Below are positions 732 to 39,159 of a DNA stretch of 64,000 nucleotides, in pieces; the first letter of the stretch is position 1; every line of letters begins with the position of its first letter. Origin of the DNA: a virus. Made by a program: the position numbers and the translations under genes. The notes beneath the pieces were generated by a model. The model searched no databases. It was not told where the DNA came from and saw nothing but the letters and a program-made list of their open reading frames with translations. The stretch spans positions 16,849 through 80,848 of the IMG/VR virus record IMGVR_UViG_3300042691_034899; one strand, written 5' to 3'.

Positions 732-1217
732 CTACTGTAAGTTTTCGTACATTTCTTTCAAGCTATCGTTAGATGCTTTTCTTGTTTCAAGAGCTTCTGT
801 AATTACTTTCTTAAAGTCTTCATCTGAGAAAACAACATCTCCAGAATCATTTACAATAAAGATATCTGACTTCTGATTAGAAATGTTTTTCATAGCTTCT
901 TTTTTATTTTCGTCTAGTCCTAAATCAATATCAAAAATATTTGACATAGTATTTAACTCTATAAGAGTATTTAAGATATGTTGAAGATTTTGTTCCATAA
1001 GGAATGAGTAATAATGTAAATCCATTAATCGGATTAAATCCGATTTTACATCTTCATAACTTCCAGATGGATTACTCTTTTTGTGAGATTTTACAACTTC
1101 ACGAGTTTTCATAAACTCTTCACGATCTGTAAAAATTCTTTTTTCAAACTTCTCTACTCTATTCAAGAGATCATTAACTCTTGACTTTAAATAGGTTTCA
1201 ACTGACTCGTTTTTCAT
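732..1217 (-). CDS. Hypothetical helical protein directly upstream of terL (terminase small subunit candidate)
   Basis: 161-aa ORF; the candidate call rests on position only. Confidence 0.4.
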   Translation of the reverse strand: MKNESVETYLKSRVNDLLNRVEKFEKRIFTDREEFMKTREVVKSHKKSNPSGSYEDVKSDLIRLMDLHYYSFLMEQNLQHILNTLIELNTMSNIFDIDLGLDENKKEAMKNISNQKSDIFIVNDSGDVVFSDEDFKKVITEALETRKASNDSLKEMYENLQ

Positions 1218-3320: not shown

Positions 3321-3352
3321 TTTGCAGATATTTACTTTTCTGTTTATATTTG
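3321..3352 (+). promoter_or_regulatory. Bacteroidota housekeeping-sigma promoter driving the non-coding region
   Basis: TTTG (3321-3324), N20, TATATTTG (3345-3352). Confidence 0.75.
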
Positions 3353-3356
3353 CGGT

Positions 3357-3680
3357 TATATTCGTAAAAAAGTATAAAAAACATAGTGTGTTTTAGATTC
3401 AGTTTTGACACGTACAACTCAAAACTACGACTAATAGGGAACTATTCGGCAAAATAAAAAGCTCAGCTCTGCAACGCCTGCAACTGAGTCCAGCAGACCT
3501 TCGGGGGGATCGCCAGAATAGATACAAAAAAGCCATAGCAATTTGAAATTTTTAAAAATTGCTGAATAAATAAGAAATTGGTACTGGTAGTAGAGTGTCC
3601 CTTATTGGTTTAGTAACATAGTTTCTATGTGAAAATCTGGCGGGAGGGATTCTGCTGGTAATAAGGCGAAGCTATGCATT
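3357..3680 (+). ncRNA. Putative large structured ncRNA, family not recognised
   Basis: No ORF. Nested helices CCAGCAGA/TCTGCTGG, CGCCAGA/TCTGGCG, CATAGT/GCTATG plus several hairpins; has its own promoter. Confidence 0.6.
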
Positions 3681-3747
3681 ATAGGTAAATTTTTCGTAAA
3701 ATTTTAATTACTCGAAAAGTTTCATTAAATTTGTAAAAAACCATAAA

Positions 3748-26411: not shown

Positions 26412-28336
26412 TGACAGCAGAACAGCAAGCAGAAAAACTAATTGATGAAGCGTATCAATATGCACCATCTTCAGGAGGAACAAAAGAAGCAATTTCTATA
26501 ATGATTGCAATTTGGTGTGCAGAAAAAATAGCATCAAGTATTGGTTTTTCTGTTAATGATGAATATTGGTCTGATGTAATTAAATACCTAAACAACAAGA
26601 ATAGTATTAACCAAAAAACAAGTAACCATGAAGAGATTCAGAACACTATACCTGATAGAACATGCTGATCACATGTATGGAACAATGCATGTATGTGCAT
26701 TAACTAGACGAGCAAGTCTTAAGTACTTCATATGTATTCAAGGAGAGATCCATGAATTTGGAGATGACGATAGCTACAAAGTATGGGAGAATAACATATT
26801 GAATGTTGTTGAGAAAGCTAGAGAAATTTGTGAGAAAAATAACTTTGACCTCTGGTCTTATTAAACTATGGAAATGAGTGAAAAAAATTTGATCAGAACA
26901 CTATTGTTCTACAGTGAGATGCTGTCAGACAAAAGAAAATCAGAAGAGTTTCAAAAAGAAATGGAAAACTTAGGATTGACGTTCGACTATTATGTTCGGG
27001 CGATGGAACAAGCAAGAGAATATTTAAACAAATAGTTATGGAAACAAGTAGAGAAATTGCAATTGCTAACGCAAAGTTAGTATTGAAACAAGCAGGTTAT
27101 TTCGTTGACAATCTTTGGCACATTGATGACGTTAAACTACGTTACAATTGTACAGACAATGATCAGGCCCAGGATATTTTAAATGGTGCGTTAACCAATG
27201 ATGCCACTATGGGGCAAATATGGTTTGCAATTGATATGGTTGCACAAGATGAAGGTTTAACTCTAAAAGATTAGTTATGAAAGATAATATCTATCACGTA
27301 TCCGTATTGCCATACAGACATGGTATATACAAAGTTGCCGTTGAGATGAACAACGGTATGAAAGTTACATTAGTAGTAACAGACATGGAGATCATTGATC
27401 AATGGAAGGATGGTAACCAAGAGCCTTTATATGAATATATTTTAAGACGAGTACAATGAGTAGAGCATTCAAAGTAAGATTCCATCTAGGACTAGGTGAT
27501 AACTTTATGAAATGGCGTGTAGAGAATATGAATACAAATGAGGTTCAGTTCTTTGATCCTCAAGTTTACTCCATAAAAATGAATGACTGTAAGCTACACA
27601 ATCAAAGAGGATCTGCTGAAAAGATCTTTGATGGCGGATATAAAACAGTATGCGCATGGATCATGGCATCTAGGATTCAGCTATTGATTGGTGATTCTGG
27701 AGACAATATTCCAGTCAGCAAAAGGCTTATGTATAATCCTAGAGTTACACCTAATTGGACTGACAGTAAGAATACTAACATCGACAAGAAAGAGTTTAAG
27801 TCTCTTGTTACTTGTGGTAAAAAATTATTTATAAATGGCTGATATTAAAAAATTAGTAGCAGAGAAGATTCAAAATGATCTGCGAGAAAACAATACAGAT
27901 AGTCTATATGACCTTCTAGTATACATAGAATATTCAGATCTGCTTAAGTTTATACCAAAAGATTTGTGGCATAAATTCAGCAAAGGTTTTTGTTGTGATG
28001 CTTGTCAGGAGTCAGTATTTCCATGGGATGTCTTTAGGGGTGTAGAAGGAAAAGATTTATGTGTTACTTGTCTGTTCGAAGTTAAAACACCAACTGACCT
28101 TAGACTTGGTAAACTGTTAAACGATGATAGTGATGGGGATGAGACGAAGGGGTAGAATGACTAGAACGATGCTACTATTAAAAGCTTTACAAATACTATT
28201 AGCATTAGAAGGTATCTTTATATTAGTAAATGCGATTAAGCTATCTGGTAATCAATTCTTTCAGGTATTTATAGGATCTGGGACTATTATAGTAGCAGCA
28301 CTATTTTCAAAAATAAAAGGTTTAGAAGATGACTAG
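26411..28336 (+). CDS. Run of small hypothetical proteins (26411, 26628, 27038, 27277, 27456, 27835, ~28157)
   Basis: Coupled co-oriented ORFs. Confidence 0.55.
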
Positions 28337-28697
28337 AATAAACTGTGGTATACCACCAAAGACTCTGCACAATAAGCATTTGATTGCTGAGCATAGAGAG
28401 ATAAAAAGAATACCTAATGTAATAAAGTCTGGTAGGTATTCACTTAAAAATCAGCCTCTTATATTTACACTCGGTGAAGGTCACGTTAAATTTTTCTATG
28501 ATAAATTAGAGTTCCTAAGAAAAAGATACATATCTTTGTATGACGAATGCATAGCTAGAGGTTTTAACGTAACCAACTACATTGATGCGTGGGATAACAT
28601 TCCTGATAAATTCATGAATGACTATTCACCTACGTCCAATGATACAAGAATTGTGCAAGAAAGAATTAACGAAAGAATTAAAAACTTTAAGCAATGA
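28329..28697 (+). CDS. denV: Pyrimidine-dimer DNA glycosylase (T4 endonuclease V family)
   Basis: MTRIN N-terminus, HLIAEHREI, FTLGEGHVKFFYDKL. Confidence 0.9.
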   Translation: MTRINCGIPPKTLHNKHLIAEHREIKRIPNVIKSGRYSLKNQPLIFTLGEGHVKFFYDKLEFLRKRYISLYDECIARGFNVTNYIDAWDNIPDKFMNDYSPTSNDTRIVQERINERIKNFKQ

Positions 28698-29289
28698 GTT
28701 ATCCAGAAATAGTACAGAACATTATTGATAATACTGGCGATACATACTCAGAATGTAAGCAAGCGATAATGGATCTAAATAGAAATGGTTGGACAGCAGA
28801 AATGGATTTAAGTGGAGAGTTGTACCATGTAAGGCCAATGTTTGTAAAGGTTGAAATTCCTTATGTAGAGAATGAAGACACTGGAGAGTTGTCTATCTCT
28901 TTAAAAGCATTAGAAGAAATTATTGAAGAAGAAATTAAAAAAGTAAAAAGAATATTATGACAGAGATTTTAGATAGAAGAGTTTACTATTCAATGAAGGA
29001 TAGGAGAATATCCACATTGGACTTACATTCAGCTTTGGAAAAAGTTGGTGTAGACATTCCAAAAAGAACATTGCAATATCATCTTGACAATGATTTCAGA
29101 ACCACAACTGATGAAAGGTTAAAGTATGTAGCAACGTACATGATCAGGAATTACGATAATTTGATTGAAGAACTAAAAAATAAAGTAGAAAAACATGGAG
29201 CCTAATTTAATTCAGAAGATTGCGATGGCCGTAATATACGTACCATTTTTAATACTTGTTATTGATCAATTACTTAAAAAACTAAAAGG

Positions 29290-29808
29290 ATGAAAAATTT
29301 AAATACTAATAATATCGTAAAGCTGGTTACGATAATCTTTATGATTATAATAACAGTACTGTATGTAACTGAAGACAAAGAGAAAGTTAAGGTTATAGTA
29401 ATTCAAAAAGAGGCTGTTAAAGATACAGTTGAGCATAACATTATATCAAAGGAGTCACTGATGAATTGTTTAAATGATTTCAAGGTAAAGTTTCCTCATA
29501 TTGTATTGGCGCAAGCTGTTCTTGAGTCTGGTCATTTTAAATCTGATGTATTCCTTAGTCACAATAATCTTTTTGGAATGAAGATAGCAGGATCTAGACC
29601 TACAACAGCATTAAACAGTGGATCTGGATATGCAAAGTATGAAAGCTGGATGATGTCTGTACTTGACTATGCTTTATTTCAGTCAGCATTTATGAGAAAG
29701 ATAAATACTGAGGCAGAGTACTTTAAGTATTTAGCAAAGAATTATGCTCAGGATCCTGGGTACATTAGTAAACTAAAAGAGATAGCATCAGAATGGAATC
29801 AGCACTAG
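29290..29808 (+). CDS. GH73 glucosaminidase (FlgJ-like) peptidoglycan hydrolase with N-terminal TM anchor
   Basis: AQAVLESG, NNLFGMK, YAQDPGY; N-terminal hydrophobic helix. Confidence 0.85.
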   Translation: MKNLNTNNIVKLVTIIFMIIITVLYVTEDKEKVKVIVIQKEAVKDTVEHNIISKESLMNCLNDFKVKFPHIVLAQAVLESGHFKSDVFLSHNNLFGMKIAGSRPTTALNSGSGYAKYESWMMSVLDYALFQSAFMRKINTEAEYFKYLAKNYAQDPGYISKLKEIASEWNQH

Positions 29809-30041
29809 ACTTTTTCAGAAGAGGGGAATCAATACTTAGAATTGAACTCCAAGATAATGAGATTACACTTGGTGAGTATGCTGTTAAGCACTCTATGCTT
29901 TACCAAAAGGCTAAAGAGATGGATAAAGAGCAAAGAGAAAAAATATTTAAACAAGCACAAGAATGTTCGGTTAAAGCTGACGGTGTTTATTTTAAATATG
30001 AATTTTTTGAGCAATTAGATGAAACCTTTAAATCAGAATAG
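29793..30041 (+). CDS. Small protein ending in TFKSE
   Basis: KAKEMDKEQ middle block; C-terminus DETFKSE encoded by the junction repeat. Confidence 0.7.
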   Translation: MESALDFFRRGESILRIELQDNEITLGEYAVKHSMLYQKAKEMDKEQREKIFKQAQECSVKADGVYFKYEFFEQLDETFKSE

Positions 30042-30042
30042 T

Positions 30043-30312
30043 ATGAAACAGTTTATTTTAATAATCCTAACATTCATATTGTTTGGATGTTCTAAAGAAC
30101 CTAAACAGGTTTATGATACAGAGATTAAGACTTATAGAATTAGTCATAAAGAAGAAGAGCATCATAAGCTTTCCAATGCTTACTATATACACTTTCAAAC
30201 TCCAACTTCAACTGAGAGAGCTGAGGTTAGCCAATCAAACTATAATAAGTATAAAGTAGGCGATACTATTCAAGTGTTAATTAAGTATTGGGAAAAACCT
30301 AAAAAGAAGTGA
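30043..30312 (+). CDS. Putative lipoprotein
   Basis: Start ATG lies inside the junction repeat; MKQFILIILTFILFG-C lipobox. Confidence 0.65.
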   Translation: MKQFILIILTFILFGCSKEPKQVYDTEIKTYRISHKEEEHHKLSNAYYIHFQTPTSTERAEVSQSNYNKYKVGDTIQVLIKYWEKPKKK

Positions 30313-30313
30313 T

Positions 30314-30559
30314 ATGGCAAATAAACAGCAGACAGCAGTAGAATGGTTGGAGCAAGAACTTTTAAAACCTAATATAGTTATATCTACTATAATTGATAAA
30401 GCCAAAGCAATGGAGAAGGAGCAATGTTTAAAGATGTTGCCTTATGATTTGAATGAGTTGGCTGAAAAAGCTTGTCCTGATGTAATATCTTCTGCTCATT
30501 CAGCATATAAAGCAGGCTTCCAAAAAGCAATTGAGTTATTAACCTTTAAATCAGAATAA
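30314..30559 (+). CDS. QTAVEWL...TFKSE family small protein
   Basis: Blocks QTAVEWL, AKAMEKEQ, TFKSE. Confidence 0.75.
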   Translation: MANKQQTAVEWLEQELLKPNIVISTIIDKAKAMEKEQCLKMLPYDLNELAEKACPDVISSAHSAYKAGFQKAIELLTFKSE

Positions 30560-30608
30560 CCACAGAGTATCATCAATGACACTTTGTTAACCTTTAAATC
30601 AGAATAAA

Positions 30609-30752
30609 ATGGAAATAGCAATAGGAATATTGATTGTAATGATGGTAATGTTGATGATATGGGGTGTAAAACTCCATTTACAAATTAAAAATAAGCTAGA
30701 ACAGTTAAAAGATTTTGACACATGGAAAGAGTGGAAAAACAAACAGCAGTAG
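30609..30752 (+). CDS. 47-aa TM microprotein
   Basis: Hand translation MEIAIGILIVMMVMLMIWGVKLHLQ...DFDTWKEWKNKQQ*; starts at a repeat ATG. Confidence 0.6.
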   Translation: MEIAIGILIVMMVMLMIWGVKLHLQIKNKLEQLKDFDTWKEWKNKQQ

Positions 30753-30949
30753 AATGGTTGATAGAAATGTTGGTGCAAGAATGTGGATTAGATGACACTG
30801 GAGATTCAGCAATTTTTGTTATAGAACAAGCCAAAGCAATAGAAAAAGAAAATATAAAAAATGCATTCTTAGATGGCTTTAGTTCTTTAGCAAATAATAA
30901 ACATCAATACTCAGAAGATTACTACAATGAAACCTTTAAATCAGAATAA
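30722..30949 (+). CDS. QTAVEWL...TFKSE family small protein
   Basis: Blocks QTAVEWL, AKAIEKE, YYNETFKSE. Confidence 0.75.
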   Translation: MERVEKQTAVEWLIEMLVQECGLDDTGDSAIFVIEQAKAIEKENIKNAFLDGFSSLANNKHQYSEDYYNETFKSE

Positions 30950-30950
30950 G

Positions 30951-31669
30951 ATGACACAAGAGATGGATAAATTCCTTGACAAGCTAGATAAATTATGTTG
31001 GGAATATCACATTGAAATTAAACCCACACATCCAGTACCTAATGATGAACATCCAACTATATCCATTATAAATGGTGATGAAGTTGTAAAATTCTTATAC
31101 ATTGATGGAGAGGGGATAGGTAAATAAAATTTAAATCAGAATAAGATGACAGTACATTCTAAAAAATTTAGAGTAGTAGAGAACAGATATGCTTTTGGTA
31201 AATATCATGTCCTATATAAAAAAGGTTTCTTCTCCAGATGGAAGTACATAAGAGCTAGTCACATAGGCTTACTAGAAGATCCAAAGCATAATCCCATATG
31301 GTCTTGGACAAGTGAAGAAGCAGCTAGGGAGTTTATTAATAAAAATTTAGCTAAGGTATGTTACTAGAACAAATGAAAACGATAAAAGATAAGGTATTAC
31401 TTTTACTAGAAAAGAATCCTCATCTAAGAGACAGTGACTTTAAACTTATTGCAAACTATTACTTCTTTGAAGTAGGCCATGAAAAGATGGCAAAGCTATC
31501 TGCAATGGAGTTCCTTGATCTCTTTGCAAAAGGCTCTCTGTCTCATTCCGAAAGTATTAGAAGAGTCAGACAAAAGATTCAAGAAGACAATCCTCATCTA
31601 AGAGGAGAGAGTTATAAGATAAGAAAAAGTGACTCGAAAGTTGTAAGAAATAACATAAAAGATTTGTAA
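30951..31669 (+). CDS. Small hypothetical proteins (30951-31127, 31146-31367, 31358-31669)
   Basis: The first two start at junction-repeat ATGs. Confidence 0.6.
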
Positions 31670-31698
31670 TTAATCTGCAAATTTATTACATTTGTACC

Positions 31699-32277
31699 AT
31701 GAACAAATCAGAAAAACTAATACCCATAATCATTAATGCTAATGATGAAGGAAAGGCAATTAAGGCTCTTGTAGAAGTTGTAGAAACACTACATTTATCT
31801 CAAAACTATTTCCATTTAGTAGATCTAAAGGATAGGCTAAACGAGTTTAAACTTAAGTTTAAATCAATAACAGATAGATATAGACAGATACCAAGCCCCA
31901 GGCCATACAATTCTCTACATGAATTAAGAATGGAGCTGAGTTTCTTGTCTAGAGATTTCTCTGATGAATTAGCGTTTGAAGTTAACAAATCAAAGATATA
32001 CCACGAGGAACGTAAGACTGAAGCTAGGGCTACTGGAATGCTTGAGCTGGCTAGTGATGAGAGTTTTCAATCTAAAGTTAAGGCTTCATCGGCTTCTGCT
32101 CTAAGAGATCTAGTAGGTGCTTCAAGTGTTTATCAAGAATTTATATCACTAGCTTCTGTATCATACGGGCTTTATCAAGAGTTCCATAAAGTTGGAGATT
32201 CTATGAAATTATTCAATGATGCCTTAGCAAGTGAGTGTAGGGAAGTACAGTACCACGATATGAAAGATGCAAAATAA
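31699..32277 (+). CDS. Helical hypothetical protein, leaderless
   Basis: TTTG-N20-TACATTTG-TACC-ATG. Confidence 0.65.
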   Translation: MNKSEKLIPIIINANDEGKAIKALVEVVETLHLSQNYFHLVDLKDRLNEFKLKFKSITDRYRQIPSPRPYNSLHELRMELSFLSRDFSDELAFEVNKSKIYHEERKTEARATGMLELASDESFQSKVKASSASALRDLVGASSVYQEFISLASVSYGLYQEFHKVGDSMKLFNDALASECREVQYHDMKDAK

Positions 32278-32289
32278 AAACCAAACCAA

Positions 32290-33282
32290 ATGAAAGTTTT
32301 AAGTAAAATAGATAGTAAGCACTTTGTTGCTATCGACATCGAAACAGTTAGAATAGCTGAAACATTTTCTGAACTTCCTGAAGAATTTCAGGATGCATGG
32401 GAATACAAAAACAAACAAGATGGAGAGATTCCAACTCAAGAAGAATTAGCAGACCTTTGGAAAAGGACATCTAGCTTATACGCTGAGTTCTCAAAAGTAT
32501 GCGTAGTCAGTCTTGCATTTCTAGATAAGTCTGGAGAGAGTCTTATGTGTAAAAGCTTCTCAAATACCTCTGAGAAAGAATTACTTAAAGAGTTGTCAGA
32601 ATTTCTTGACAGAATTTCAAGTAGCAGCCCACATTACAGATTAATCGGGCACGCATCGAAGTTTTTTGATTACCCATTCCTTGGAAAGCGGTACATAATT
32701 AACCAACTTCCAATACCAAGAATACTTGATGATAGTGATAAAAAGCCATGGGAAACACTTAACACATGCACAAACACGCTATGGAAGTTAGGAGGAACTG
32801 GAGCTGGATCTTCACTACAAGCTTTATGCGTATCACTCAATATTCCTATATCTAAGGTTGATATGGTTGGAGATGAGGTTGGCCGAGAGTACTTTAAAGG
32901 TAATATAGAAGGTATAACAGATTACTGCAATAAAGATGCTATAGCTACATTTAATGTACTTAGAAGGTTTAAGTATGAGAATATCTTTACTTTTGATGAA
33001 GTTGTTTACTTAGATAATACCAAAGAAGAAGCAGCAGTAGAGTCTGGAAATGAGCTTCACAAGTTAGCTATTTCTAAAGAGTTTACTGATGATATTAAAG
33101 AAGCTCTAATAAATAGATTCAAAGGAAAGAAAGTCACTAAGAAAGAGTTGGATATGCTTCAGGATATGCTTGAGAATCTATACATAAACAATAAGATGTT
33201 TAAGAGTGATGCTCAACCAATTAAAGAAGCAAAGAGGGCTGAGGTTAAGGAGTTTATTAAAGTTTTAAAATCAAGTAAATGA
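32290..33282 (+). CDS. DEDDy 3'-5' exonuclease (PolB exonuclease-related)
   Basis: AIDIET (ExoI), GH...FDYPF (ExoII), YCNKD (ExoIII). Confidence 0.85.
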   Translation: MKVLSKIDSKHFVAIDIETVRIAETFSELPEEFQDAWEYKNKQDGEIPTQEELADLWKRTSSLYAEFSKVCVVSLAFLDKSGESLMCKSFSNTSEKELLKELSEFLDRISSSSPHYRLIGHASKFFDYPFLGKRYIINQLPIPRILDDSDKKPWETLNTCTNTLWKLGGTGAGSSLQALCVSLNIPISKVDMVGDEVGREYFKGNIEGITDYCNKDAIATFNVLRRFKYENIFTFDEVVYLDNTKEEAAVESGNELHKLAISKEFTDDIKEALINRFKGKKVTKKELDMLQDMLENLYINNKMFKSDAQPIKEAKRAEVKEFIKVLKSSK

Positions 33283-33995
33283 AGTCAAAAGTAGTTTTAC
33301 CAAGAGTTTATAATAATCCTAGTGGATCGGATAAATTCGAAAAATTTGTAGGCTTACCAAAAATAAGCTATAGCCAGATCGATAGTTGGAATAATCCTGA
33401 TTATAAAGGAGAGTACTTCGAAAGTTACTTCCTTGGGATAGGTGATTCTGGAAATATATTTACACACTTTGGAAGTCTAGTAGGAGAATGGTTTGAGAAA
33501 GGTCAAGATGAGTCTGGAGAATTATCTGAATCTGATATTGAAGTGCTATCTAGTATTGGAAGGCCAGCTAATTGTGAATACGAAAGAGAAGTAGTAATCG
33601 TAAGGCCTCTTGGATATGCCATTCAAGGATTTATCGATAGGGCAAGAACGATTGTAGATGAGTCTGATAAAAAGCAAATTGAAGTAATTGACTTTAAGAC
33701 TGGGAACATTGAAAAGAAATCAAGCTTCTATGGGGGAAATGACTACCAACAGACAACTTTATATACATTTGGTTTGATTGAAGAGGGTGAAGATGTCGTA
33801 TGGTCTGGAGTTGTTATGCTTGGGAGAAATGGGAATGGATCTGAGAAATCACCGCTTAGATTGAATGGAGATGTTTTAAGCATTGAAACGCCTTATTCAG
33901 AAGATAGAATTGATTTATTCTTTAACAAATGTGATAAGACTGTTGAGGAAATTAGTGAATACTATAAATTTTACAATAAATTTTTTGTAGATTAA
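33279..33995 (+). CDS. PD-(D/E)XK Cas4/RecB-like nuclease
   Basis: ISYSQI, GFIDR, VIDFKTG, QTTLY. Confidence 0.8.
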   Translation: MKSKVVLPRVYNNPSGSDKFEKFVGLPKISYSQIDSWNNPDYKGEYFESYFLGIGDSGNIFTHFGSLVGEWFEKGQDESGELSESDIEVLSSIGRPANCEYEREVVIVRPLGYAIQGFIDRARTIVDESDKKQIEVIDFKTGNIEKKSSFYGGNDYQQTTLYTFGLIEEGEDVVWSGVVMLGRNGNGSEKSPLRLNGDVLSIETPYSEDRIDLFFNKCDKTVEEISEYYKFYNKFFVD

Positions 33996-34028
33996 AAAAT
34001 AATAACTAAATTTGATAAAAATTAAAAT

Positions 34029-34460
34029 ATGGAAAATCAAGAACAAATGAGTCAAGAGCAATTGCAAGAGGCAATGCTACAAGAAAGAGCAGAAATGGAT
34101 CAAAAATATGATGAGCTTTTTGATCAATTAGAAAAAGGAGGTTACTTTAAACAAACCTACGGTAAAGATAGTAGGGTTACAATTCCAGGATCTATATTCA
34201 ATTCGTTTATTTACTTCTGCCACTTACAAGCAAAGCACTTACATTCAGTTCAAAGTGTATTAAATGTAATTCAACAAACAGTAACTGGTCTTGGGAACAA
34301 TGTATCAGATATGACAATCCGTTTAATGGAGCAGCATAAAGAAAATGTTGACGCTGGATACACAATTACAATGGATCAGATGGATGAGGAAGATGCTCAG
34401 GAAAATATTAAAGAGATCATCATTGATGAGAAGCCAAAACGTAAAAAACGCAAACAATAA
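34029..34460 (+). CDS. Hypothetical protein
   Basis: Promoter TTTG-N19-TAAATTTG (33984-34014); hairpin at 34491-34519 downstream. Confidence 0.65.
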   Translation: MENQEQMSQEQLQEAMLQERAEMDQKYDELFDQLEKGGYFKQTYGKDSRVTIPGSIFNSFIYFCHLQAKHLHSVQSVLNVIQQTVTGLGNNVSDMTIRLMEQHKENVDAGYTITMDQMDEEDAQENIKEIIIDEKPKRKKRKQ

Positions 34461-34524
34461 TAAGAAGCTATATTTTTCTTAGGTAAGTAAGGCTGCCTAC
34501 CAATTTGTGGGCAGCTTTTCATTT

Positions 34525-34598
34525 GGTCCCGTAGCTCAGCTGGATAGAGCAACTGCCTTCTAAGCAGTAGGTCACACGTTCGAATCGTGTCGGGATCA
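34525..34598 (+). tRNA. tRNA-Arg(UCU)
   Basis: GGTCCCG/CGGGATC acceptor stem, ACTGC-CTTCTAA-GCAGT anticodon arm, GTTCGAATC T-loop; CCA not encoded. Confidence 0.95.
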
Positions 34599-34690
34599 CA
34601 GCAGTTACTTGATGTCCTGTAGTACAGTAACAACCATTGGCATGTAGGGCATTGCACGAATGGTGGCGCAAGGTAAGATGTACTTGCAAC

Positions 34691-34759
34691 GGTGGAGTGC
34701 CGAAGACGTTATGAAACGATATGTGTGAGTGATCATGCATTGGGCTCAAATCTCCACCA
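34691..34759 (+). ncRNA. tRNA-sized non-tRNA structured RNA
   Basis: GGTGGAG/CTCCACC+A closing stem; CGTT-ATGA-AACG and ATGTGTGA-GTGA-TCATGCAT hairpins. Confidence 0.55.
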
Positions 34760-34764
34760 CTTTT

Positions 34765-34838
34765 GGATCTGTAACTCAGTTGGTTAGAGTGCAACACTCA
34801 TAATGTTGAAGTCCTTGGTTCGAGCCCAAGCCGATCCA
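34765..34838 (+). tRNA. tRNA with CAU anticodon (elongator Met or Ile2)
   Basis: GGATCTG/CCGATCC acceptor stem (one mismatch), CAACA-CTCATAA-TGTTG anticodon arm, GTTCGAGC T-loop. Confidence 0.9.
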
Positions 34839-34844
34839 CAAAAT

Positions 34845-35157
34845 ACCTACCACGCTTCTGGATTGTGGTGTCCATGGTCGAGCGTACCAGGGTAGGTCTT
34901 TTGCCCCACCAACAAAACGATGTTGGAATCCTCAAGTGATACTGTTACTTGAGTTTGAACCCCCCTGTGGATAGTATCTACAGGTCAAGTACCATCAGGC
35001 ATCCCAACGAACTGCTCACTTGTATGGTCTTTTCCGATACTGGGAAATTGGATTGCTGTAATATCTGGCTGACGAGCCACACTTACTCAACCATATAACC
35101 ATTATCATCCCCTAGTAAGACTGTCTGATCAACAGAAACTGCTAGGGTTTTTGTTTT
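34845..35157 (+). ncRNA. Hairpin-rich non-coding tract ending in a terminator-like stem
   Basis: At least six inverted repeats; final CCCTAGTA...TGCTAGGG followed by a T-run. Confidence 0.5.
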
Positions 35158-35188
35158 AATTATATATTTGATTTCAAATAATAAGTAT

Positions 35189-35707
35189 ATGAGTGTAGTA
35201 CGTTTTATTGCCGATTTACATTTTGGTCATGAGAATATGGCTAAGAAACGAAGCTTTGCATCAGCAGAAAAACATGATGAATTTATTGTTCATAAGTGGA
35301 ACAGTACTGTACACAAACGTGATCTTACCTATATACTAGGTGATGTTACAATGGAAAAGGCTAATTATTCTATACTCGATAGATTAAATGGTCGGAAAAT
35401 AGTCGTGGGCGGAAATCACGACAAACCTAATCATTCTCGTAAAATGCTAGAGCATGTTGATTATATTGCTGGTATGGTACAGTATAAAGGCCTCTTTTTA
35501 ACTCACTGTCCAGTTCATCCAATGGAGATGGATTATCGGATTAAATACAATATTCATGGTCACATACATGAGAAGTTAGTTGAACGTGATGTTAAGTTAT
35601 TTGGCATTACTATATTTAAACAAGTAGATCGTAGGTACATATGTGTATCATGCGAGCATGTTGATTACACACCAAAGACTCTAGCTGAGTTAGGTATAAA
35701 CAGATAA
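35189..35707 (+). CDS. Calcineurin-like metallophosphoesterase
   Basis: ADLHFGH, LGD, GNHD, THCP, HGHIH. Confidence 0.9.
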   Translation: MSVVRFIADLHFGHENMAKKRSFASAEKHDEFIVHKWNSTVHKRDLTYILGDVTMEKANYSILDRLNGRKIVVGGNHDKPNHSRKMLEHVDYIAGMVQYKGLFLTHCPVHPMEMDYRIKYNIHGHIHEKLVERDVKLFGITIFKQVDRRYICVSCEHVDYTPKTLAELGINR

Positions 35708-35711
35708 TGAA

Positions 35712-36512
35712 ATGAAAATAGAACAAGTTAAAATACCAATGGACATTATTCCACCTTCACGAGTAAAACTGGTAAAGAGTAACGGTGAAACACATTACGG
35801 AACTCAATTTAAATTTGTTGAGTGGAATGGTGATGAAATAGGTAGTCGAGCAAAGCAGATGCATGATGAGCCACAAATCGGTTACAGTGTTATAATTGAT
35901 CCACAATACCTATCGTTTACTTGGCTTACTACACCTATCACAGAAATTATCAGTGATACTTCTGATAACGGATCTCGAAGCATTCATTTTAAAACTAAGA
36001 ACTCAGAGTATAAATTACTTGTAGAGGAAGATGATATGGCTTTATGGGATAATACATTGTTGGACGGATTAGAAGATTTGTAATGGCAAAGATTAAGATA
36101 GAATGTGAAATAGAATTCAATGAAGACTCATGGTATAGTCATGCAGATGAAGAGGAATTAGAATGGTTTATTTCCGTTTTAAACGATAAAGAGAATACTA
36201 TGGTAATACTTCACTCAAATGATGTGGGTGATACTATTGGACAGACTAATAAATTTAAATGGAAAATACTTAAATCAGAATAAGATGAAAATAAAAGAAT
36301 GGTTATATGATGTTTGCTATGATAAGCATGGTCAATACTTATGGAATAAAGAAAAAGATGGTTCTCAAATGATAGGAGAAGTCAGAGGATGGGGAGCAAT
36401 ACAAAAGCTTTTTAAAACAGAAGAAGAAGCAAGTAAATTTCAAGATGAAGTAGGTGAATTTATAGCACAAGCTATTAGGGAAAAAGTTGAACGGGATTTT
36501 AAATCAGAATAG
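35712..36512 (+). CDS. Small hypothetical proteins (35712-36083, 36083-36283, 36285-36512)
   Basis: The last two end in KSE* encoded by junction repeat B. Confidence 0.6.
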
Positions 36513-36513
36513 T

Positions 36514-37203
36514 ATGAAAGTAATTGTCACAGCGATATCAGATACTCATACAAAACATAATCAAGTGTTTAAGGACTTACACAAGGGTCATATACTAATT
36601 CATGGAGGAGATTTTATGAATTCAGGGTACGAAGTTAATGAGGCATATGAATTCTTTGATTCTTTTGATTCAGTAAAAGGCTACACTCATAAGTTTCTTA
36701 TTGCTGGAAATCACGATAGAGCAATGGAGATTAATAATGAGAAGATGGTAGCACTACTAAACCATTTTTCATCAATTACCTATCTTCAGGATAAGTCTGT
36801 CTATATTGCTGATCTAGGTGTAAAGGTATATGGATCTCCTTGGCAGCCAGAGTTCTTTAGTTGGGCTTTTAATCTTCCAAGAAACGGTAAAGAGCTACAA
36901 GAAAAATGGGATGCAATACCAGAAGATACGGATATATTAATAACTCATGGGCCTCCATTTGGGTATCTGGACATTCCAGGAGGGCAAAGTATTAGGACTG
37001 GTTGTGAAATATTACGAGATAAAGTTGATAAGATTAAACCAAAAATTCATATCTTTGGACACATTCATGGAAGTGCAGGTTATCACTTTAATGGTCATAC
37101 CCATTTTATAAATGCAGCTGTACTAAATGAAAGGTACGTTTATACAAATCTTCCTCAAACATTTGAGTGGGATAATATTACAAATGAAGTAAAATTTTTA
37201 TAA
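36514..37203 (+). CDS. Metallophosphoesterase (MPPED/239FB-like)
   Basis: SDTH, HGGD, AGNHD, YGSPWQP, ITHGPP, FGHIH; start at a repeat ATG. Confidence 0.9.
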   Translation: MKVIVTAISDTHTKHNQVFKDLHKGHILIHGGDFMNSGYEVNEAYEFFDSFDSVKGYTHKFLIAGNHDRAMEINNEKMVALLNHFSSITYLQDKSVYIADLGVKVYGSPWQPEFFSWAFNLPRNGKELQEKWDAIPEDTDILITHGPPFGYLDIPGGQSIRTGCEILRDKVDKIKPKIHIFGHIHGSAGYHFNGHTHFINAAVLNERYVYTNLPQTFEWDNITNEVKFL

Positions 37204-37219
37204 CTTAAAAACAAACAAA

Positions 37220-39159
37220 ATGAAAAAGCTAATTTTAATTGCAACATTATCTATTAACCTTTTTAACTCTAACGCTCAATCTCAGCTAGGAGTAGTAACC
37301 GTATCAAAACAAGATAAGACTGTTCCAGTTGGTTATTGGTATGTAATGGACGATAGAAATTTAAAAAACCAAATGTTCTTCTACGATAAAACAGAAGACG
37401 TAATCAAAACTCTAACTGCAATGCTTGATGAGTATGATCAAAATTTTAACGCACCATTTGGAAAAGATTTAGAAGGAGATGATTACTGGATTATAACTCA
37501 TCCAACTGGTAATATTGTTTATCTATACTTTGTGACTGAGCCTGGATCAGAGTATTCATTCATAACATCGGCAACACGATGATAAACGAGATAATAGAAC
37601 AATACCAAGATGAGACATTCTTGAAGGCTGATGGTTTTGATGAGGCCATTATCGGAGTATGTGAAGACTTTAATGCCCCCGTTAGATTGATATATTCTGT
37701 CCAGAAATGTTTAGATATTCTAATGAAGGATATGTCATACGAAGAAGCATTAGAATATTTCAATTTCAATGTTAGTGGTGCTTATGTTGGTGAGAAAACC
37801 CCGATATGGTGTTGGGACAATTTTAAAAATTAATTATAATAAACATAAACAATGAAAATTAAATTCAGTAAAAAGAACCTAAACATTTGGGTGCTATCAG
37901 AAGAAGGGGATATTAAATTAATTAAAGTCCCAATCAAGAAAAGATTAGAGTTCATAAAGATGTTCATTGGAAAAAATGAAATACCAAAAGAGATGGATGT
38001 CATTAAGTGGCTAGTAAAAGATAAAGAAGGGTATTACATTTAAGTTATGGCAAAAGTTATATTAGAATTTGATCCCATAGAGGAAAGAGATGACATGGAA
38101 TGTGCTATCAATGGCTGGAAATGGAAGATGGTAGCATGGAACTTTGATCAACATCTTCGTAATGAATTAAAGTACAATGATCATAACTTAACTAAGGAGC
38201 AATATGATTTACTTGATAAAACAAGAGAAGCTTTTCGAGGTATGATATCAGAGGAAGGTTTAATATTTGATTGATATGTGGAGTAAACTAAAGTTATGGT
38301 GGCAATTTGAGGCCAGATGGTACTATAGAGATTTCATATTAGGAATTAAAAACCTATGGAAATGGTTTCCAACAATATGGAAAGATCGTGATTGGGATGA
38401 TCATTTTATCTTTGAAATTTTGAAAGTCAAGCTTGAGAATCAAGCAGCTTATATTGAAAAGAATGATAGACATGTAAGCGCAAAAAGAGATGCTGAACAG
38501 ATGAAGCTTTGTGTTAATCTAATTAAGCTTATCCAGGATGACTATTATAGAATGGAATACCTTGATTATTTTAAAGAAGACTACAAATTTATTCCAACAG
38601 ATGAAACTAAGAAGTGGTATACAGTAGAGACAACAGCTATTGAGGATAATTTAATCGAGTATTTTGCAAAGTACCCAAGGCAATACCGTAAAGTAGTCTC
38701 AGGAGAGATTGATTTCTTTAAAAAGGCAGAGAAGAATTCGCATGTAATAGCTCTCGAAATTGGTCTGCATAATCAAGAGAAGGCTAAGTGGTTACTATTC
38801 AAACTACTAAATAATAACATTGAAAACTGGTGGGAATAATGAAATTTAAAGTTGGAGACAAGGTAGTGTGCATTGATGATAATTTTGATACATCTAAACC
38901 TAATTTCGAAAAGATATTTCCAAATCTTCCAGTAAAAGATTCTGTATACACGATCAGAGAATACCAAGAGCCTTCAATCAAATTAGTTGAGGTTGTTAAT
39001 CCTACTTCATTAATTAATCTGGATGGTATTATAATAGAGGATGAGGGAGCATTTCATGAAAAAAGATTTGCACCAGTTTTGTCTAAGGGTATGAGTATCG
39101 AAGCGGAAATTTCTAAGATGATTAAGAAAAAGAAAAGTAAAAAATTAGTTGCCAGTTAA
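37220..39159 (+). CDS. Small hypothetical proteins, including a secreted protein (37220-37582)
   Basis: Signal peptide followed by Q in 37220; further ORFs at 37579, 37852, 38047, 38267, ~38839. Confidence 0.55.

What the first reader, a model, noticed from the sequence alone, without database searches (positions are those of the whole stretch)
30023..36516. Candidate gene-cassette system: a 17-23-bp stop+start junction element delimiting accessory genes
Seen: the core TTAAATCAGAATA(A/G) occurs 7 times (30023, 30541, 30589, 30931, 31130, 36269, 36498), always at a gene boundary and in 6 of 7 followed by N-ATG. In five copies it supplies the C-terminal KSE-stop of the upstream gene, including unrelated proteins (WKILKSE, ERDFKSE). 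At 30589 and 31130 it is non-coding yet intact, so conservation is at the nucleotide level. It divides the region into units: 30043-30559 (lipoprotein + QTAVEWL gene), 30560-30607 (empty), 30608-30949, 30950-31144 and 36284-36512. DNA inserted at such a site would be terminated and translationally coupled to its neighbour. Inference: an integron-like, integrase-free (in this window) plug-in system for gaining, losing and reordering small genes, through phage RecA/SSB/exonuclease microhomology recombination or an unseen site-specific recombinase.
Basis: partly seen in the sequence, partly recalled or inferred. Interest (0 to 1): 0.85.

Follow-up and report, generated by a model that had tools for sequence, protein, structure and literature searches.

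The report
Portable stop-start joint of phage genes
A 23-base DNA sequence that ends one small gene and starts the next occurs seven times in this Flavobacterium-type phage and letter for letter in well over a hundred other uncultured phages, and single genes are gained, lost and swapped exactly at it, so it behaves as a shared connector for exchanging accessory genes.

Summary
TTAAATCAGAATAR occurs 7 times, all on the + strand (0.01 expected). The full element is W-AACC-TTTAAATCAGAATA-R-N-ATG. The exact 23-mer is in at least 120 viral contigs, against 0 for its reversed control.

- It carries a stop codon in each reading frame, and upstream genes use all three (73, 15 and 13 of 111).
- Its A positions match the start-site preferences known for Flavobacterium.
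- It is also the DNA-conserved tail of a large mini-gene family, MKQTAVEWL…YYNETFKSE.

Homology between phages breaks at the element more often than at neighbouring junctions. Whole genes bounded by it sit at 90-100% identity in unrelated flanks. The closest relative has five extra motif-bounded units between two genes that are adjacent here. No tyrosine or serine recombinase was found in four complete carrier genomes.

Best reading: a portable translational stop/restart joint that also serves as a crossover point for ordinary homologous recombination. It works like T4 PeSLs and mycobacteriophage SAS, and is not an integron. The mechanism is inferred, not shown. This scan has reported the same joint before on other phage genomes.

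The parts
30023..30045 (+). Junction element copy 1 (AACCTTTAAATCAGAATAG-t-ATG). It ends g29793 (...DETFKSE*) and starts g30043.
30541..30559 (+). Copy 2 (AACCTTTAAATCAGAATAA). It ends g30314 (...ELLTFKSE*). This is the only copy with no ATG after it.
30560..30588 (+). 29-nt spacer between copies 2 and 3 (the 'empty' unit). No ORF. In the KSE frame it reads ...TLLTFKSE, like the remnant of a gene's 3' end. Its small hairpin is not significant.
   Evidence: fold z = -0.84, 37 of 200 shuffles as good
30589..30611 (+). Copy 3, non-coding, starts g30609.
30931..30953 (+). Copy 4. It ends g30722 (...YYNETFKSE*) and starts g30951.
31126..31148 (+). Copy 5 (AAAA instead of AACC), non-coding, because g30951 stops at 31125-31127. 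It starts g31146.
36265..36287 (+). Copy 6 (CTTAAATC..., one change at the first T). It gives g36083 its LKSE* tail and starts g36285.
   Evidence: the L139 homologue ends FKYEII* without the element
36494..36516 (+). Copy 7. It gives g36285 its FKSE* tail and starts the metallophosphoesterase gene.
   Evidence: the L142 homologue ends ...ERETK* without the element; metallophosphoesterase homologues in L196, L206 and L214 lack it upstream
29793..30041 (+). g29793, 82 aa, ends ...EQLDETFKSE. No family match.
30043..30312 (+). g30043, 89 aa, with a lipoprotein-like signal (…LFGCSKE). It shares unit 1 with g30314.
   Evidence: sequence read directly; no family
30314..30559 (+). g30314, 81 aa, a QTAVEWL-family member of the ...LLTFKSE subtype.
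30609..30752 (+). g30609, a 47-aa hydrophobic mini-protein that overlaps the start of g30722. A homologous C-terminal part exists in L139.
30722..30949 (+). g30722, 75 aa, a member of the MKQTAVEWL…YYNETFKSE mini-gene family. It is acidic and predicted to form three helices.
30951..31127 (+). g30951, a 58-aa cassette bounded by copies 4 and 5. The same gene lies in L187 (90.5% nt identity, both flanks unrelated) and in L139 (67% aa identity, different neighbours).
31146..31367 (+). g31146, 73 aa, started by copy 5. No homologue was found in the loci searched.
36083..36283 (+). g36083, 66 aa. In the relative L139 its homologue sits directly after the g30951 homologue, about 5 kb away from its position here.
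36285..36512 (+). g36285, a 75-aa cassette bounded by copies 6 and 7. The L198 homologue (60% aa identity) is also bounded on both sides. The L142 and L134 homologues have no element.
36514..37203 (+). Metallophosphoesterase gene, the resident gene downstream of the second cluster.
   Evidence: Pfam PF00149 E=9e-14; phrog_1649

Best explanation
The element W-AACC-TTTAAATCAGAATA-R-N-ATG is a portable translational stop/restart joint. It also acts as a recombination linker for small accessory genes of Bacteroidota (Flavobacterium-type) phages.

At the RNA level (inferred): it stops an upstream reading frame in whichever of the three frames that frame arrives (tTAAcc, TTTAAA, TAR). One base later it offers an ATG in the A-rich context that Bacteroidia ribosomes, which lack Shine-Dalgarno recognition, prefer. 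Any gene placed behind it inside a polycistronic operon is therefore still translated.

At the DNA level (breakpoints shown, mechanism inferred): the same roughly 23 bp lies in direct orientation between many small genes and in many phages. General homologous recombination between copies can therefore delete, duplicate, reorder and exchange whole genes without breaking translation. This phage encodes a UvsX/RecA-like recombinase and exonucleases that could do this.

The element is also the DNA-conserved 3' end of the very abundant MKQTAVEWL…YYNETFKSE mini-gene family, which probably seeded it and keeps spreading it. Exact copies may be over-represented because genes that keep an intact joint remain transferable.
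For: Distribution
- 7 copies here against 0.01 expected.
- It is found in complete phage genomes of 31, 32, 121 and 124 kb. Copies are always on one strand and clustered. In 153 loci (1.25 Mb) there are 0 copies on the opposite strand.

Discrete nucleotide-level unit
- Of 111 unique copies, the upstream ORF ends at TAR in 73, at the TAA inside TTTAAA in 15 and at tTAAcc in 13. Nine have no ORF.
- In 64 non-family copies, conservation starts sharply at -5.
- The copy spectrum is 198 exact, 31 with one change and 11 with two. 47 of the 53 changes lie in the AACC lead-in.

Translation context
- ATG is 1 nt downstream in 75 of 79 unique copies.
- The element has A at -3, -6, -11, -12 and -13. These are the positive determinants reported for F. 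johnsoniae (PMC6847099, passages read).
- Other genes of the same loci are enriched for A at the same places (0.56, 0.48, 0.64, 0.67, 0.54). Motif starts are slightly less structured (-1.9 against -2.57 kcal/mol, p=0.019).
- No TAnnTTTG promoter consensus lies between 28531 and 31687, so these look like internal cistrons.

Module boundary
- Alignments of at least 120 nt among 57 loci: 13 cross the element, 119 end at it and 51 start at it.
- Against junctions within 1.5 kb: 13 crossing and 49 break-only sites at the element, versus 54 and 58 elsewhere. Odds ratio 0.28, p=6e-4.
- Of 25 homologous unit pairs, 12 have the element on both sides in both loci and unrelated flanks on both sides.
- Genes with the element at both ends have non-syntenic partners in 10 of 12 cases. 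The figure is 22 of 46 with one element and 142 of 449 with none (p=4e-4).
- Example: a 210-nt gene is 96% identical in L139 and L056, with homology starting and ending on the element. It is the only long shared stretch between that 4.25-kb contig and the complete 124-kb genome.

Closest relative L139 (found through the exonuclease gene, not through the motif)
- Five exact and two decayed copies.
- About 830 nt holding five motif-bounded units lie between genes that are adjacent here.
- The g36083 homologue is in another place.

No dedicated enzyme found
- PF00589, PF00239 and PF01844: 0 hits in the own record.
- PF00589 and PF00239: 0 of 4 complete carrier genomes.
- A UvsX-like recombinase and two exonucleases are encoded in the window.
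Against: - Nothing shows a recombination event in progress. Only assembled contigs could be laid, so neither circles nor deletion variants could be seen.
- My script for simple insertion/deletion pairs among the first 71 loci found none.
- Linkage of the variable R and N positions with the cassette was inconclusive. The upstream joint matched in 10 of 15 pairs, which are not independent, and a 99%-identical cassette carries TAAg in one locus and TAGa in three others.
- Mosaicism is common in these regions even without the element: 142 of 449 motif-free genes also have non-syntenic partners.
- Most loci were picked because they carry the element, and nearly all are metagenome assemblies.
- A start-site function alone does not need the exact letters. 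At the one host chromosomal junction that carries the element, it decays with divergence across 30 Flavobacterium species. The invariance of the 14-nt core in phages may therefore need a sequence-specific factor that I did not find.
Confidence: 0.6

Rival explanations
1. Expression element only. The joint is a translation-start or coupling signal, or the operator of a trans-acting regulator or ribonuclease that co-regulates a set of early genes (as T4 RegA/RegB do, recalled). The mosaic boundaries only reflect that it lies in hyperplastic regions, and it has no causal part in recombination.
For: It has fixed 1-nt spacing to ATG, single-strand orientation and consensus A positions. Core invariance is stronger than a loose start-site preference would need, which fits a specific binding factor. 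Mosaicism is frequent at motif-free genes too. SAS repeats of Cluster K mycobacteriophages are a precedent (PMC3203893, passages read).
Against: Breakpoints are enriched at the element relative to junctions within 1.5 kb. Non-synteny rises from 32% to 48% to 83% with 0, 1 and 2 flanking elements. Homology of near-identical cassettes starts and ends on the element. The element is shared by phages with genomes from 31 to 124 kb or more, so a phage-specific regulator would have to be shared as well. No antisense partner is present in the window and there is no special pairing with 16S rRNA.
Confidence: 0.2
2. A true site-specific cassette system. An unrecognised recombinase or nuclease, phage- or host-encoded, recognises the core TTTAAATCAGAATA and inserts or excises genes, as integron integrases do at attC.
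For: There is a sharp, discrete element with an almost invariant 14-nt core. Cassettes are cleanly delimited. The own record is only about 53% complete, so genes may be unseen.
Against: No tyrosine or serine recombinase was found in the own record or in 4 of 4 complete carrier genomes, and no HNH in the own record. The element has no inverted-repeat or hairpin architecture. It decays at an orthologous host junction. The abundant family protein is acidic (median pI 4.65, 114 of 120 below 5.5) and so is an unlikely DNA binder.
Confidence: 0.08
3. Passive footprint. The copies at unrelated genes are only leftovers of partly deleted QTAVEWL-family genes, or by-products of tandem duplication, with no function of their own.
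For: About 40% of copies (42 of 106) are the tail of a family gene. The family's ends are conserved at synonymous sites. The 29-nt spacer here and the 75-nt mini unit in L139 look like remnants. Sibling tails such as ...TFKQQEL* with an ATGA overlap exist.
Against: Random deletions would leave remnants of variable length, but 64 non-family copies begin sharply at -5. All three frames are used with a stop provided in each. Spacing to the next ATG is fixed. Exact copies greatly outnumber decayed ones.
Confidence: 0.07
4. Assembly artefact. Metagenome assemblers joined different phages at the shared repeat, creating false mosaics.
For: Nearly all loci are metagenome contigs. The conserved blocks are 100-1400x deep in the samples laid, against 5-10x for the flanks, so many co-occurring carriers exist.
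Against: The repeat (about 23-45 bp) is far shorter than sequencing reads. Complete genomes with terminal repeats carry several copies. Cultured Flavobacterium isolates carry the element in their chromosome. The same cassette and flank combinations recur in independent contigs.
Confidence: 0.03

Closest known systems
PeSLs (promoter-early stem-loops) of T4-type phages (Arbiol et al. 2010, PMC2839356, abstract and outline read; Comeau et al. 2014, PMC4122927, seen only in the search listing)
   Same: These are short conserved regulatory repeats in direct orientation. They flank small non-essential genes in hyperplastic regions. Insertions, deletions and replacements between relatives map to them. 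Exchange is by recombination between copies, with no dedicated integrase.
   Different: A PeSL is a transcription cassette made of a sigma-70-like promoter and a terminator hairpin. This element has neither. It is a translational stop/start joint that overlaps coding sequence, it is found in Bacteroidota phages, and it is shared letter for letter by phages of very different genome size. Mini-circles were shown for PeSLs and are not shown here.
Start-Associated Sequences (SAS) of Cluster K mycobacteriophages (Pope et al. 2011, PMC3203893, passages read)
   Same: SAS are asymmetric conserved repeats, 11-19 per genome, in one orientation, confined to the non-structural part of the genome and lying a few bases upstream of mostly ATG start codons. 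They sometimes contain the upstream stop codon. They are more conserved than a ribosome-binding site needs to be, and their function is unproven.
   Different: SAS is 13 bp, contains a Shine-Dalgarno core and is confined to one phage cluster. In the passages I read it is not reported as a recombination boundary. This element is 19-23 bp, has no SD, has stops in three frames, forms the tail of a gene family, occurs across unrelated phages and marks exchange points.
Integron attC/attI cassette system (recalled from general knowledge)
   Same: The outcome is the same: promoterless single-gene cassettes in one orientation, delimited by a repeated site, and gained, lost and reordered.
   Different: There is no IntI, no folded imperfect inverted repeat and no attI/Pc platform. 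The site sits at the translational junction and is about 23 bp of plain sequence.
Stoperators of Cluster A mycobacteriophages and 'boundary/linker' sequences of lambdoid phages (recalled; stoperators are mentioned in the SAS passages)
   Same: These are short asymmetric conserved sequences at gene junctions, oriented with transcription. The linker idea holds that conserved junction sequences guide module exchange.
   Different: Stoperators are repressor-binding sites specific to an immunity group and are spread over the genome. Here the spacing to ATG is fixed and the element crosses phage groups.

Membership tests
Integron (attC cassette array) | IntI-type tyrosine recombinase encoded beside the array | tested here: not met
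   PF00589: 0 hits in the own 80.8-kb record and 0 of 4 complete carrier genomes. The own record is only about 53% complete.
Integron (attC cassette array) | attC site: imperfect inverted repeats that fold as a single-stranded hairpin | tested here: not met
   The element stays unpaired in the fold of 30537-30612. No inverted repeat is associated with the copies.
Integron (attC cassette array) | Cassettes excised as circles and inserted at attI | not testable with these tools
   Only assembled contigs were available to lay.
PeSL regulatory cassette (T4-type phages) | Strong early promoter within the repeat | tested here: not met
   There is no TAnnTTTG (Bacteroidota -7 box, recalled consensus) in or next to any copy. 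The nearest are at 28531 and 31687.
PeSL regulatory cassette (T4-type phages) | Stem-loop terminator within the repeat | tested here: not met
   No hairpin is present in the element.
PeSL regulatory cassette (T4-type phages) | Insertion, deletion and replacement differences between relatives map to the repeats | tested here: met
Start-Associated Sequence (Cluster K mycobacteriophages) | Asymmetric repeat, one orientation, a few nt upstream of ATG starts of a subset of non-structural genes | tested here: met
   All copies are on the + strand, 1 nt before ATG, and among small genes of the non-structural part.
Start-Associated Sequence (Cluster K mycobacteriophages) | The 13-bp SAS consensus with a Shine-Dalgarno core, in Cluster K genomes | tested here: not met
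   The sequence is unrelated and has no SD. Pairing with Flavobacterium 16S rRNA is no better than for shuffles (-12.1 against -11.4±1.9 kcal/mol; 93 of 300 shuffles as good).
Bacteroidia A-rich ('Kozak-like') translation initiation region | A at -3 and -6 and A-rich at -11 to -14 upstream of AUG | tested here: met
   The element has A at -3, -6, -11, -12 and -13. The determinants are as reported in PMC6847099. Function in translation was not tested.
MKQTAVEWL…YYNETFKSE mini-protein family (unnamed) | Conserved N-terminal KQTAVEWL, central AK.MEK block and C-terminal YYNETFKSE | tested here: met
   g30722 and g30314 align with 69 database members. 104 of the 120 listed homologues end in FKSE. 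There is no Pfam or PHROG family.

The most novel reading that the evidence does not exclude
The element is the adaptor of an enzyme-free gene-exchange network that spans unrelated phages of Flavobacterium and other Bacteroidota. Any small gene that acquires the 23-bp joint on both sides becomes a transferable cassette. The cassette can loop out and re-enter any other copy by general recombination, and it is expressed on arrival because the joint stops the upstream frame and restarts translation. The letter-perfect conservation would then be maintained mainly by selection for transferability at the level of the cassette, not by a binding protein.
Probability: 0.4. Interest if true: 0.8.

Novelty: new variant of a known kind. 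Interest (0 to 1): 0.68.

Why it matters
Phage accessory genes, many of which are probably host-takeover or anti-defence genes, turn over very fast. How single genes move between unrelated phages without losing expression is poorly understood outside T4-type phages. This element is a concrete, searchable sequence handle for such exchange in Bacteroidota phages, whose hosts lack Shine-Dalgarno-led initiation.

Three things become testable:
- How internal cistrons are translated in Bacteroidia.
- Whether about 23 bp of shared sequence is enough to drive modular exchange in nature.
- Which small genes form the mobile pool, by harvesting everything that lies between two copies.

It would also be a ready-made part for polycistronic expression in Flavobacterium. 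I found no paper that mentions the sequence or the family tail, and no cultured phage in the GenBank collection searched carries it.

Tried and rejected
- **Protein-level KSE tag.** Rejected. Upstream genes end in the element in three different frames, and nine copies have no upstream ORF.
- **Pairing with 16S rRNA (a TURBS-like restart signal).** The best duplex with a Flavobacterium 16S is -12.1 kcal/mol, against -11.4±1.9 for shuffles (93 of 300 as good). For the 3' tail alone, 62 of 300 shuffles are as good. One search failed because of my own wrong anchor string; I located the rRNA.
- **Antisense or small-RNA partner in the window.** There is no reverse-complement word longer than 10 nt. 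Duplexes with the structured RNA at 3321-3700 and with three intergenic regions are not clearly better than shuffles. The best is 8 of 200, in a 1-kb gap.
- **Known RNA families.** Only the two tRNAs were found.
- **Hairpin in the 'empty' unit.** z = -0.84, not significant.
- **Simple insertion/deletion pairs among the first 71 loci.** My script found none. The evidence came later, from the relative L139 and from unit-by-unit comparison.
- **Linkage of the variable R/N letters to the cassette, to locate the crossover.** Inconclusive.
- **Laying sequencing runs.** All 4 runs were assembled contigs. The many 'joints' are other family members with different middle parts. There was no evidence for or against circles.
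- **Family function.** There is no Pfam or PHROG family. The AlphaFold model is three helices (pLDDT 86.5). Foldseek against PDB gave no match at E<=0.001, and the top weak rows are histones. VIA-align's best Z was 5.1, to a TAF histone-fold chain, which is below the level the tool calls meaningful.
- **More distant relatives.** L141 and L143 show no exact copy in the stretch held, and L142 shows no copy even at one mismatch. L140 is cut at the contig end.
- **Cultured phages.** A 45-nt query found only chance 20-nt hits. A 10-kb megablast found only tRNA matches.
- **Papers.** 'YYNETF' gave 0 papers. The 11-mer gave 11 papers, all unrelated by title. One search with loose terms was useless. 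Supplementary files of the papers were not opened.

Full report
**What is in the window**

The core TTAAATCAGAATAR occurs exactly seven times, all on the + strand. The copies are at 30028, 30546, 30594, 30936, 31131, 36270 and 36499. The expectation is 0.01, and no shuffle of 100 reaches seven. The whole 80,848-nt virus record that contains the window, about 53% complete by CheckV, has the same seven copies and none on the other strand.

- Six copies are followed by one base and ATG.
- Five copies give the upstream ORF a ...KSE-stop tail.
- Two copies are non-coding but intact.
- The repeat finder recovers the family and finds no inverted repeat attached to it.

**The full element and its spread**

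Of 143 instances with enough flank, 82 have ATG within 0-2 nt, giving 79 unique instances. Their consensus is AACC-TTTAAATCAGAATA-R-N-ATG, with information dropping sharply on both sides.

The same pattern read backwards is in none.

Whole-record searches show 8, 4, 3, 1 and 2 copies in records of 124 kb, 32 kb, 31 kb, 121 kb and 60 kb. Within each record the copies are on one strand and clustered.

In one genome per prokaryote species, 14 stretches carry the element:
- Three Flavobacterium isolates.
- MAG contigs of Flavobacterium, Flavobacteriales, Chitinophagaceae, Bacteroidales, Bacteroidota and Lewinella.
- Five short or odd MAG contigs.

No cultured phage in the GenBank collection searched has it. 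I found no paper with the sequence or the family tail.

**The conservation is at the nucleotide level**

Among 111 unique copies, the upstream ORF ends at the TAR of the element in 73 (tail ...KSE). It ends at the TAA inside TTTAAA in 15 (tail ...NL) and at a TAA formed by tTAAcc in 13. Nine copies have no upstream ORF of 30 codons. The extended element therefore offers a stop in every frame.

In the 64 copies that do not follow a family gene, conservation begins abruptly at -5 (T or A, then AACC), and positions further upstream are at background. This argues against remnants of random length.

In 153 loci (1.25 Mb) there are 198 exact copies, 31 with one change and 11 with two. Of the 53 changes, 47 lie in the AACC lead-in, so the 14-nt core hardly varies. 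No copy lies on the opposite strand. These loci were chosen because they hold at least one exact copy, so only the surplus copies are informative.

**Link to a gene family**

About 40% of copies (42 of 106 unique) are the 3' end of a mini-gene family.
- A protein search with g30722 gave 161 hits. Of the 120 listed, 104 end in FKSE and nearly all begin MKQTAVEWL, with a variable middle.
- The ends are conserved at synonymous sites as well: Thr ACA 51 of 53, Ala GCA 51 of 53, Tyr TAC 28 of 32 at both positions, Thr ACC 29 of 33.
- The proteins are acidic, with median pI 4.65 and 114 of 120 below 5.5.
- They are predicted as three helices at pLDDT 86.5.
- They have no Pfam or PHROG family and no significant structural match.
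- Some family members have sibling tails, such as ...TFKQQEL with an ATGA overlap.

**Translation context**

In F. johnsoniae, A at -3, -6, -12 and -13 and A-richness from -14 to -11 go with efficient initiation (PMC6847099, passages read). The element has A at -3, -6, -11, -12 and -13.

The 2,074 other gene starts in the same phage loci are enriched for A at these places. Motif starts are slightly less structured, at -1.9 against -2.57 kcal/mol (p=0.019).

No Bacteroidota promoter consensus (TAnnTTTG, recalled) lies between 28531 and 31687. Good ones precede g31699, g34029 and g35189. The motif-led genes therefore look like internal cistrons.

All of this is inference about function. Nothing here measures translation.

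**The element is a module boundary**

- Among the first 57 loci, alignments of at least 120 nt cross the element 13 times, end at it 119 times and start at it 51 times.
- Compared with ordinary same-strand junctions within 1.5 kb, 13 motif sites have a crossing alignment and 49 have only breaks. For the other junctions the figures are 54 and 58. Odds ratio 0.28, p=6e-4.
- In 154 loci with 281 elements, 25 pairs of homologous motif-to-motif units were found. In 12 of them both loci have the element on both sides and both flanks are unrelated. Identities in these 12 pairs are 77-100%, at least 90% in all but one.
- Genes with the element at both ends have a partner in a non-syntenic context in 10 of 12 cases. 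With one element the figure is 22 of 46, and with none it is 142 of 449 (p=4e-4).
- A clear example is a 210-nt gene that is 96% identical in L139 and L056, with homology starting and ending on the element. It is the only long stretch that the 4.25-kb contig shares with the complete 124-kb genome.

**This phage against its closest relative**

L139 was found through the exonuclease gene (76% aa identity), not through the motif.
- It has five exact and two decayed copies in the equivalent region.
- g30722 and g30951, joined here by copy 4, are separated there by about 830 nt that hold five motif-bounded units.
- The g36083 homologue lies directly after the g30951 homologue there, but 5 kb away here.
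- That homologue ends FKYEII there and WKILKSE here, so the element replaced the gene's own end.
- Likewise, the L142 homologue of g36285 ends ...ERETK without the element.
- g30951 recurs at 90.5% nucleotide identity in a 224-kb contig, with unrelated flanks.

**How it most likely works**

No tyrosine or serine recombinase and no HNH nuclease was found in the record. No tyrosine or serine recombinase was found in four complete carrier genomes. The window encodes a UvsX-like recombinase and two exonucleases.

The simplest reading is that about 23 bp of identical sequence in direct orientation serves as a crossover point for general recombination. Because the joint is also a stop/restart signal, whole genes can be moved without loss of expression. 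This is the logic shown for T4 PeSLs (PMC2839356, abstract read), but with a translational instead of a transcriptional cassette. It also resembles the SAS repeats of Cluster K mycobacteriophages (PMC3203893).

It is not an integron, because the defining parts were tested and not found.

**What speaks against this reading, and what stays open**

- No recombination intermediate was seen.
- The crossover position could not be placed.
- Mosaicism is common without the element.
- The data are mostly metagenome assemblies chosen by the motif.
- One host chromosomal junction carries the element in three Flavobacterium species. It lies between paralogous small genes, with a sensor-kinase-sized ORF upstream of the paralog array and a response-regulator-like gene downstream (both read from the sequences, not searched against any family). 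Across 30 species this junction decays with divergence and is exact only at 75% or more protein identity.
- A start-site role alone therefore does not hold the letters fixed. The near-invariance in phages needs either an unseen specific factor or continual spread of intact copies.
- Pairing with 16S rRNA, an antisense partner and known RNA families were excluded as far as tested.

**Earlier notes of this scan**

After my own analysis, I found that other agents had reported the same TFKSE-stop/ATG joint, or sibling joints, in at least ten other phage genomes, with similar conclusions. I treat these as agreement, not as independent evidence.

Noticed in passing
L128:7440-7640 (-), L135:3900-4100 (-), L136:2270-2470 (+); L151-L180: The full element also sits at one chromosomal junction of Flavobacterium limi, F. 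pectinovorum and F. calami, between tandem paralogous small genes. A 452-aa ORF that I took for a sensor kinase lies upstream of the paralog array and a 255-aa ORF that looks like a response regulator lies downstream. I read these gene identities from the sequences and did not search them against any family. Across 30 Flavobacterium genomes the orthologous junction drifts. It is exact only at 75% or more protein identity, and more distant species have look-alikes of the form TAATTTAAATCA..ATAAAATG.
   Followed up: partly
window 30314-30559, 30722-30949 and family members P0001-P0120: The MKQTAVEWL…YYNETFKSE mini-proteins are strongly acidic (median pI 4.65). They are predicted as short helix, 30-residue helix, short helix. 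The weak best structural rows are all histone-fold chains (Foldseek E about 3; VIA Z up to 5.1), which is not significant. The combination of constant ends, variable middle and acidity would fit a diversified binding or anti-defence scaffold.
   Followed up: partly
loci, for example L079, L196, L197, L233: The two variable letters of the element occur mainly as two forms, TAAgATG and TAGaATG. A 99%-identical cassette carries one form in one locus and the other form in three others.
   Followed up: partly
L079, L112, L113, L071, L081: Some family genes end in sibling joints instead, such as ...TFKQQEL...TFKKQKQ or ...TFKSEE, with the stop overlapping the next ATG (ATGA). This suggests a set of related junction types, one of which has spread most.
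   Followed up: no
window 25012, 25199, 25873, 26628: A different local junction motif (…AAACTAGAAAC-ATG and …AAAACAAGTAAC[A/C]-ATG) precedes several consecutive small genes. Another first-reader note also flags this.
   Followed up: no
window 732-1217(-), 3748, 8671, 32290, 37220, 39201: Several larger genes share another start context, AAAA(A)CCAAA-N-ATG. This is distinct from the junction element and is possibly the phage's strong start site.
   Followed up: no
window 30005-31208 in runs X1, X2, X3, X8: Contig depth over the family's conserved blocks and the joint is 100-1400x in runs X1 and X2, against about 5-10x for the flanking phage sequence (3-115x in X3 and 1-23x in X8, against about 1-7x and 0-4x). 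Many more abundant genomes in the same samples therefore carry these blocks.
   Followed up: partly
window 34525-34599, 34765-34839: tRNA-Arg(TCT) and tRNA-Met(CAT) genes lie between the two motif clusters. These tRNAs were the only part of 28000-38000 that matched cultured phages.
   Followed up: no
window 30715-30760: The conserved 5' block of g30722 (…AAACAGCAGTAGAATGG) supplies, in another frame, the stop of the overlapping 47-aa hydrophobic gene g30609. The same overlap is kept in L139 (4760-4915 and 4885-5109).
   Followed up: partly
L139:5516-5590: The relative also has a very short unit (75 nt, a 20-codon ORF ending in the NL frame) directly after a family gene. This parallels the 48-nt 'empty' unit at 30560-30607 here, but the two spacers are not alike.
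   Followed up: no
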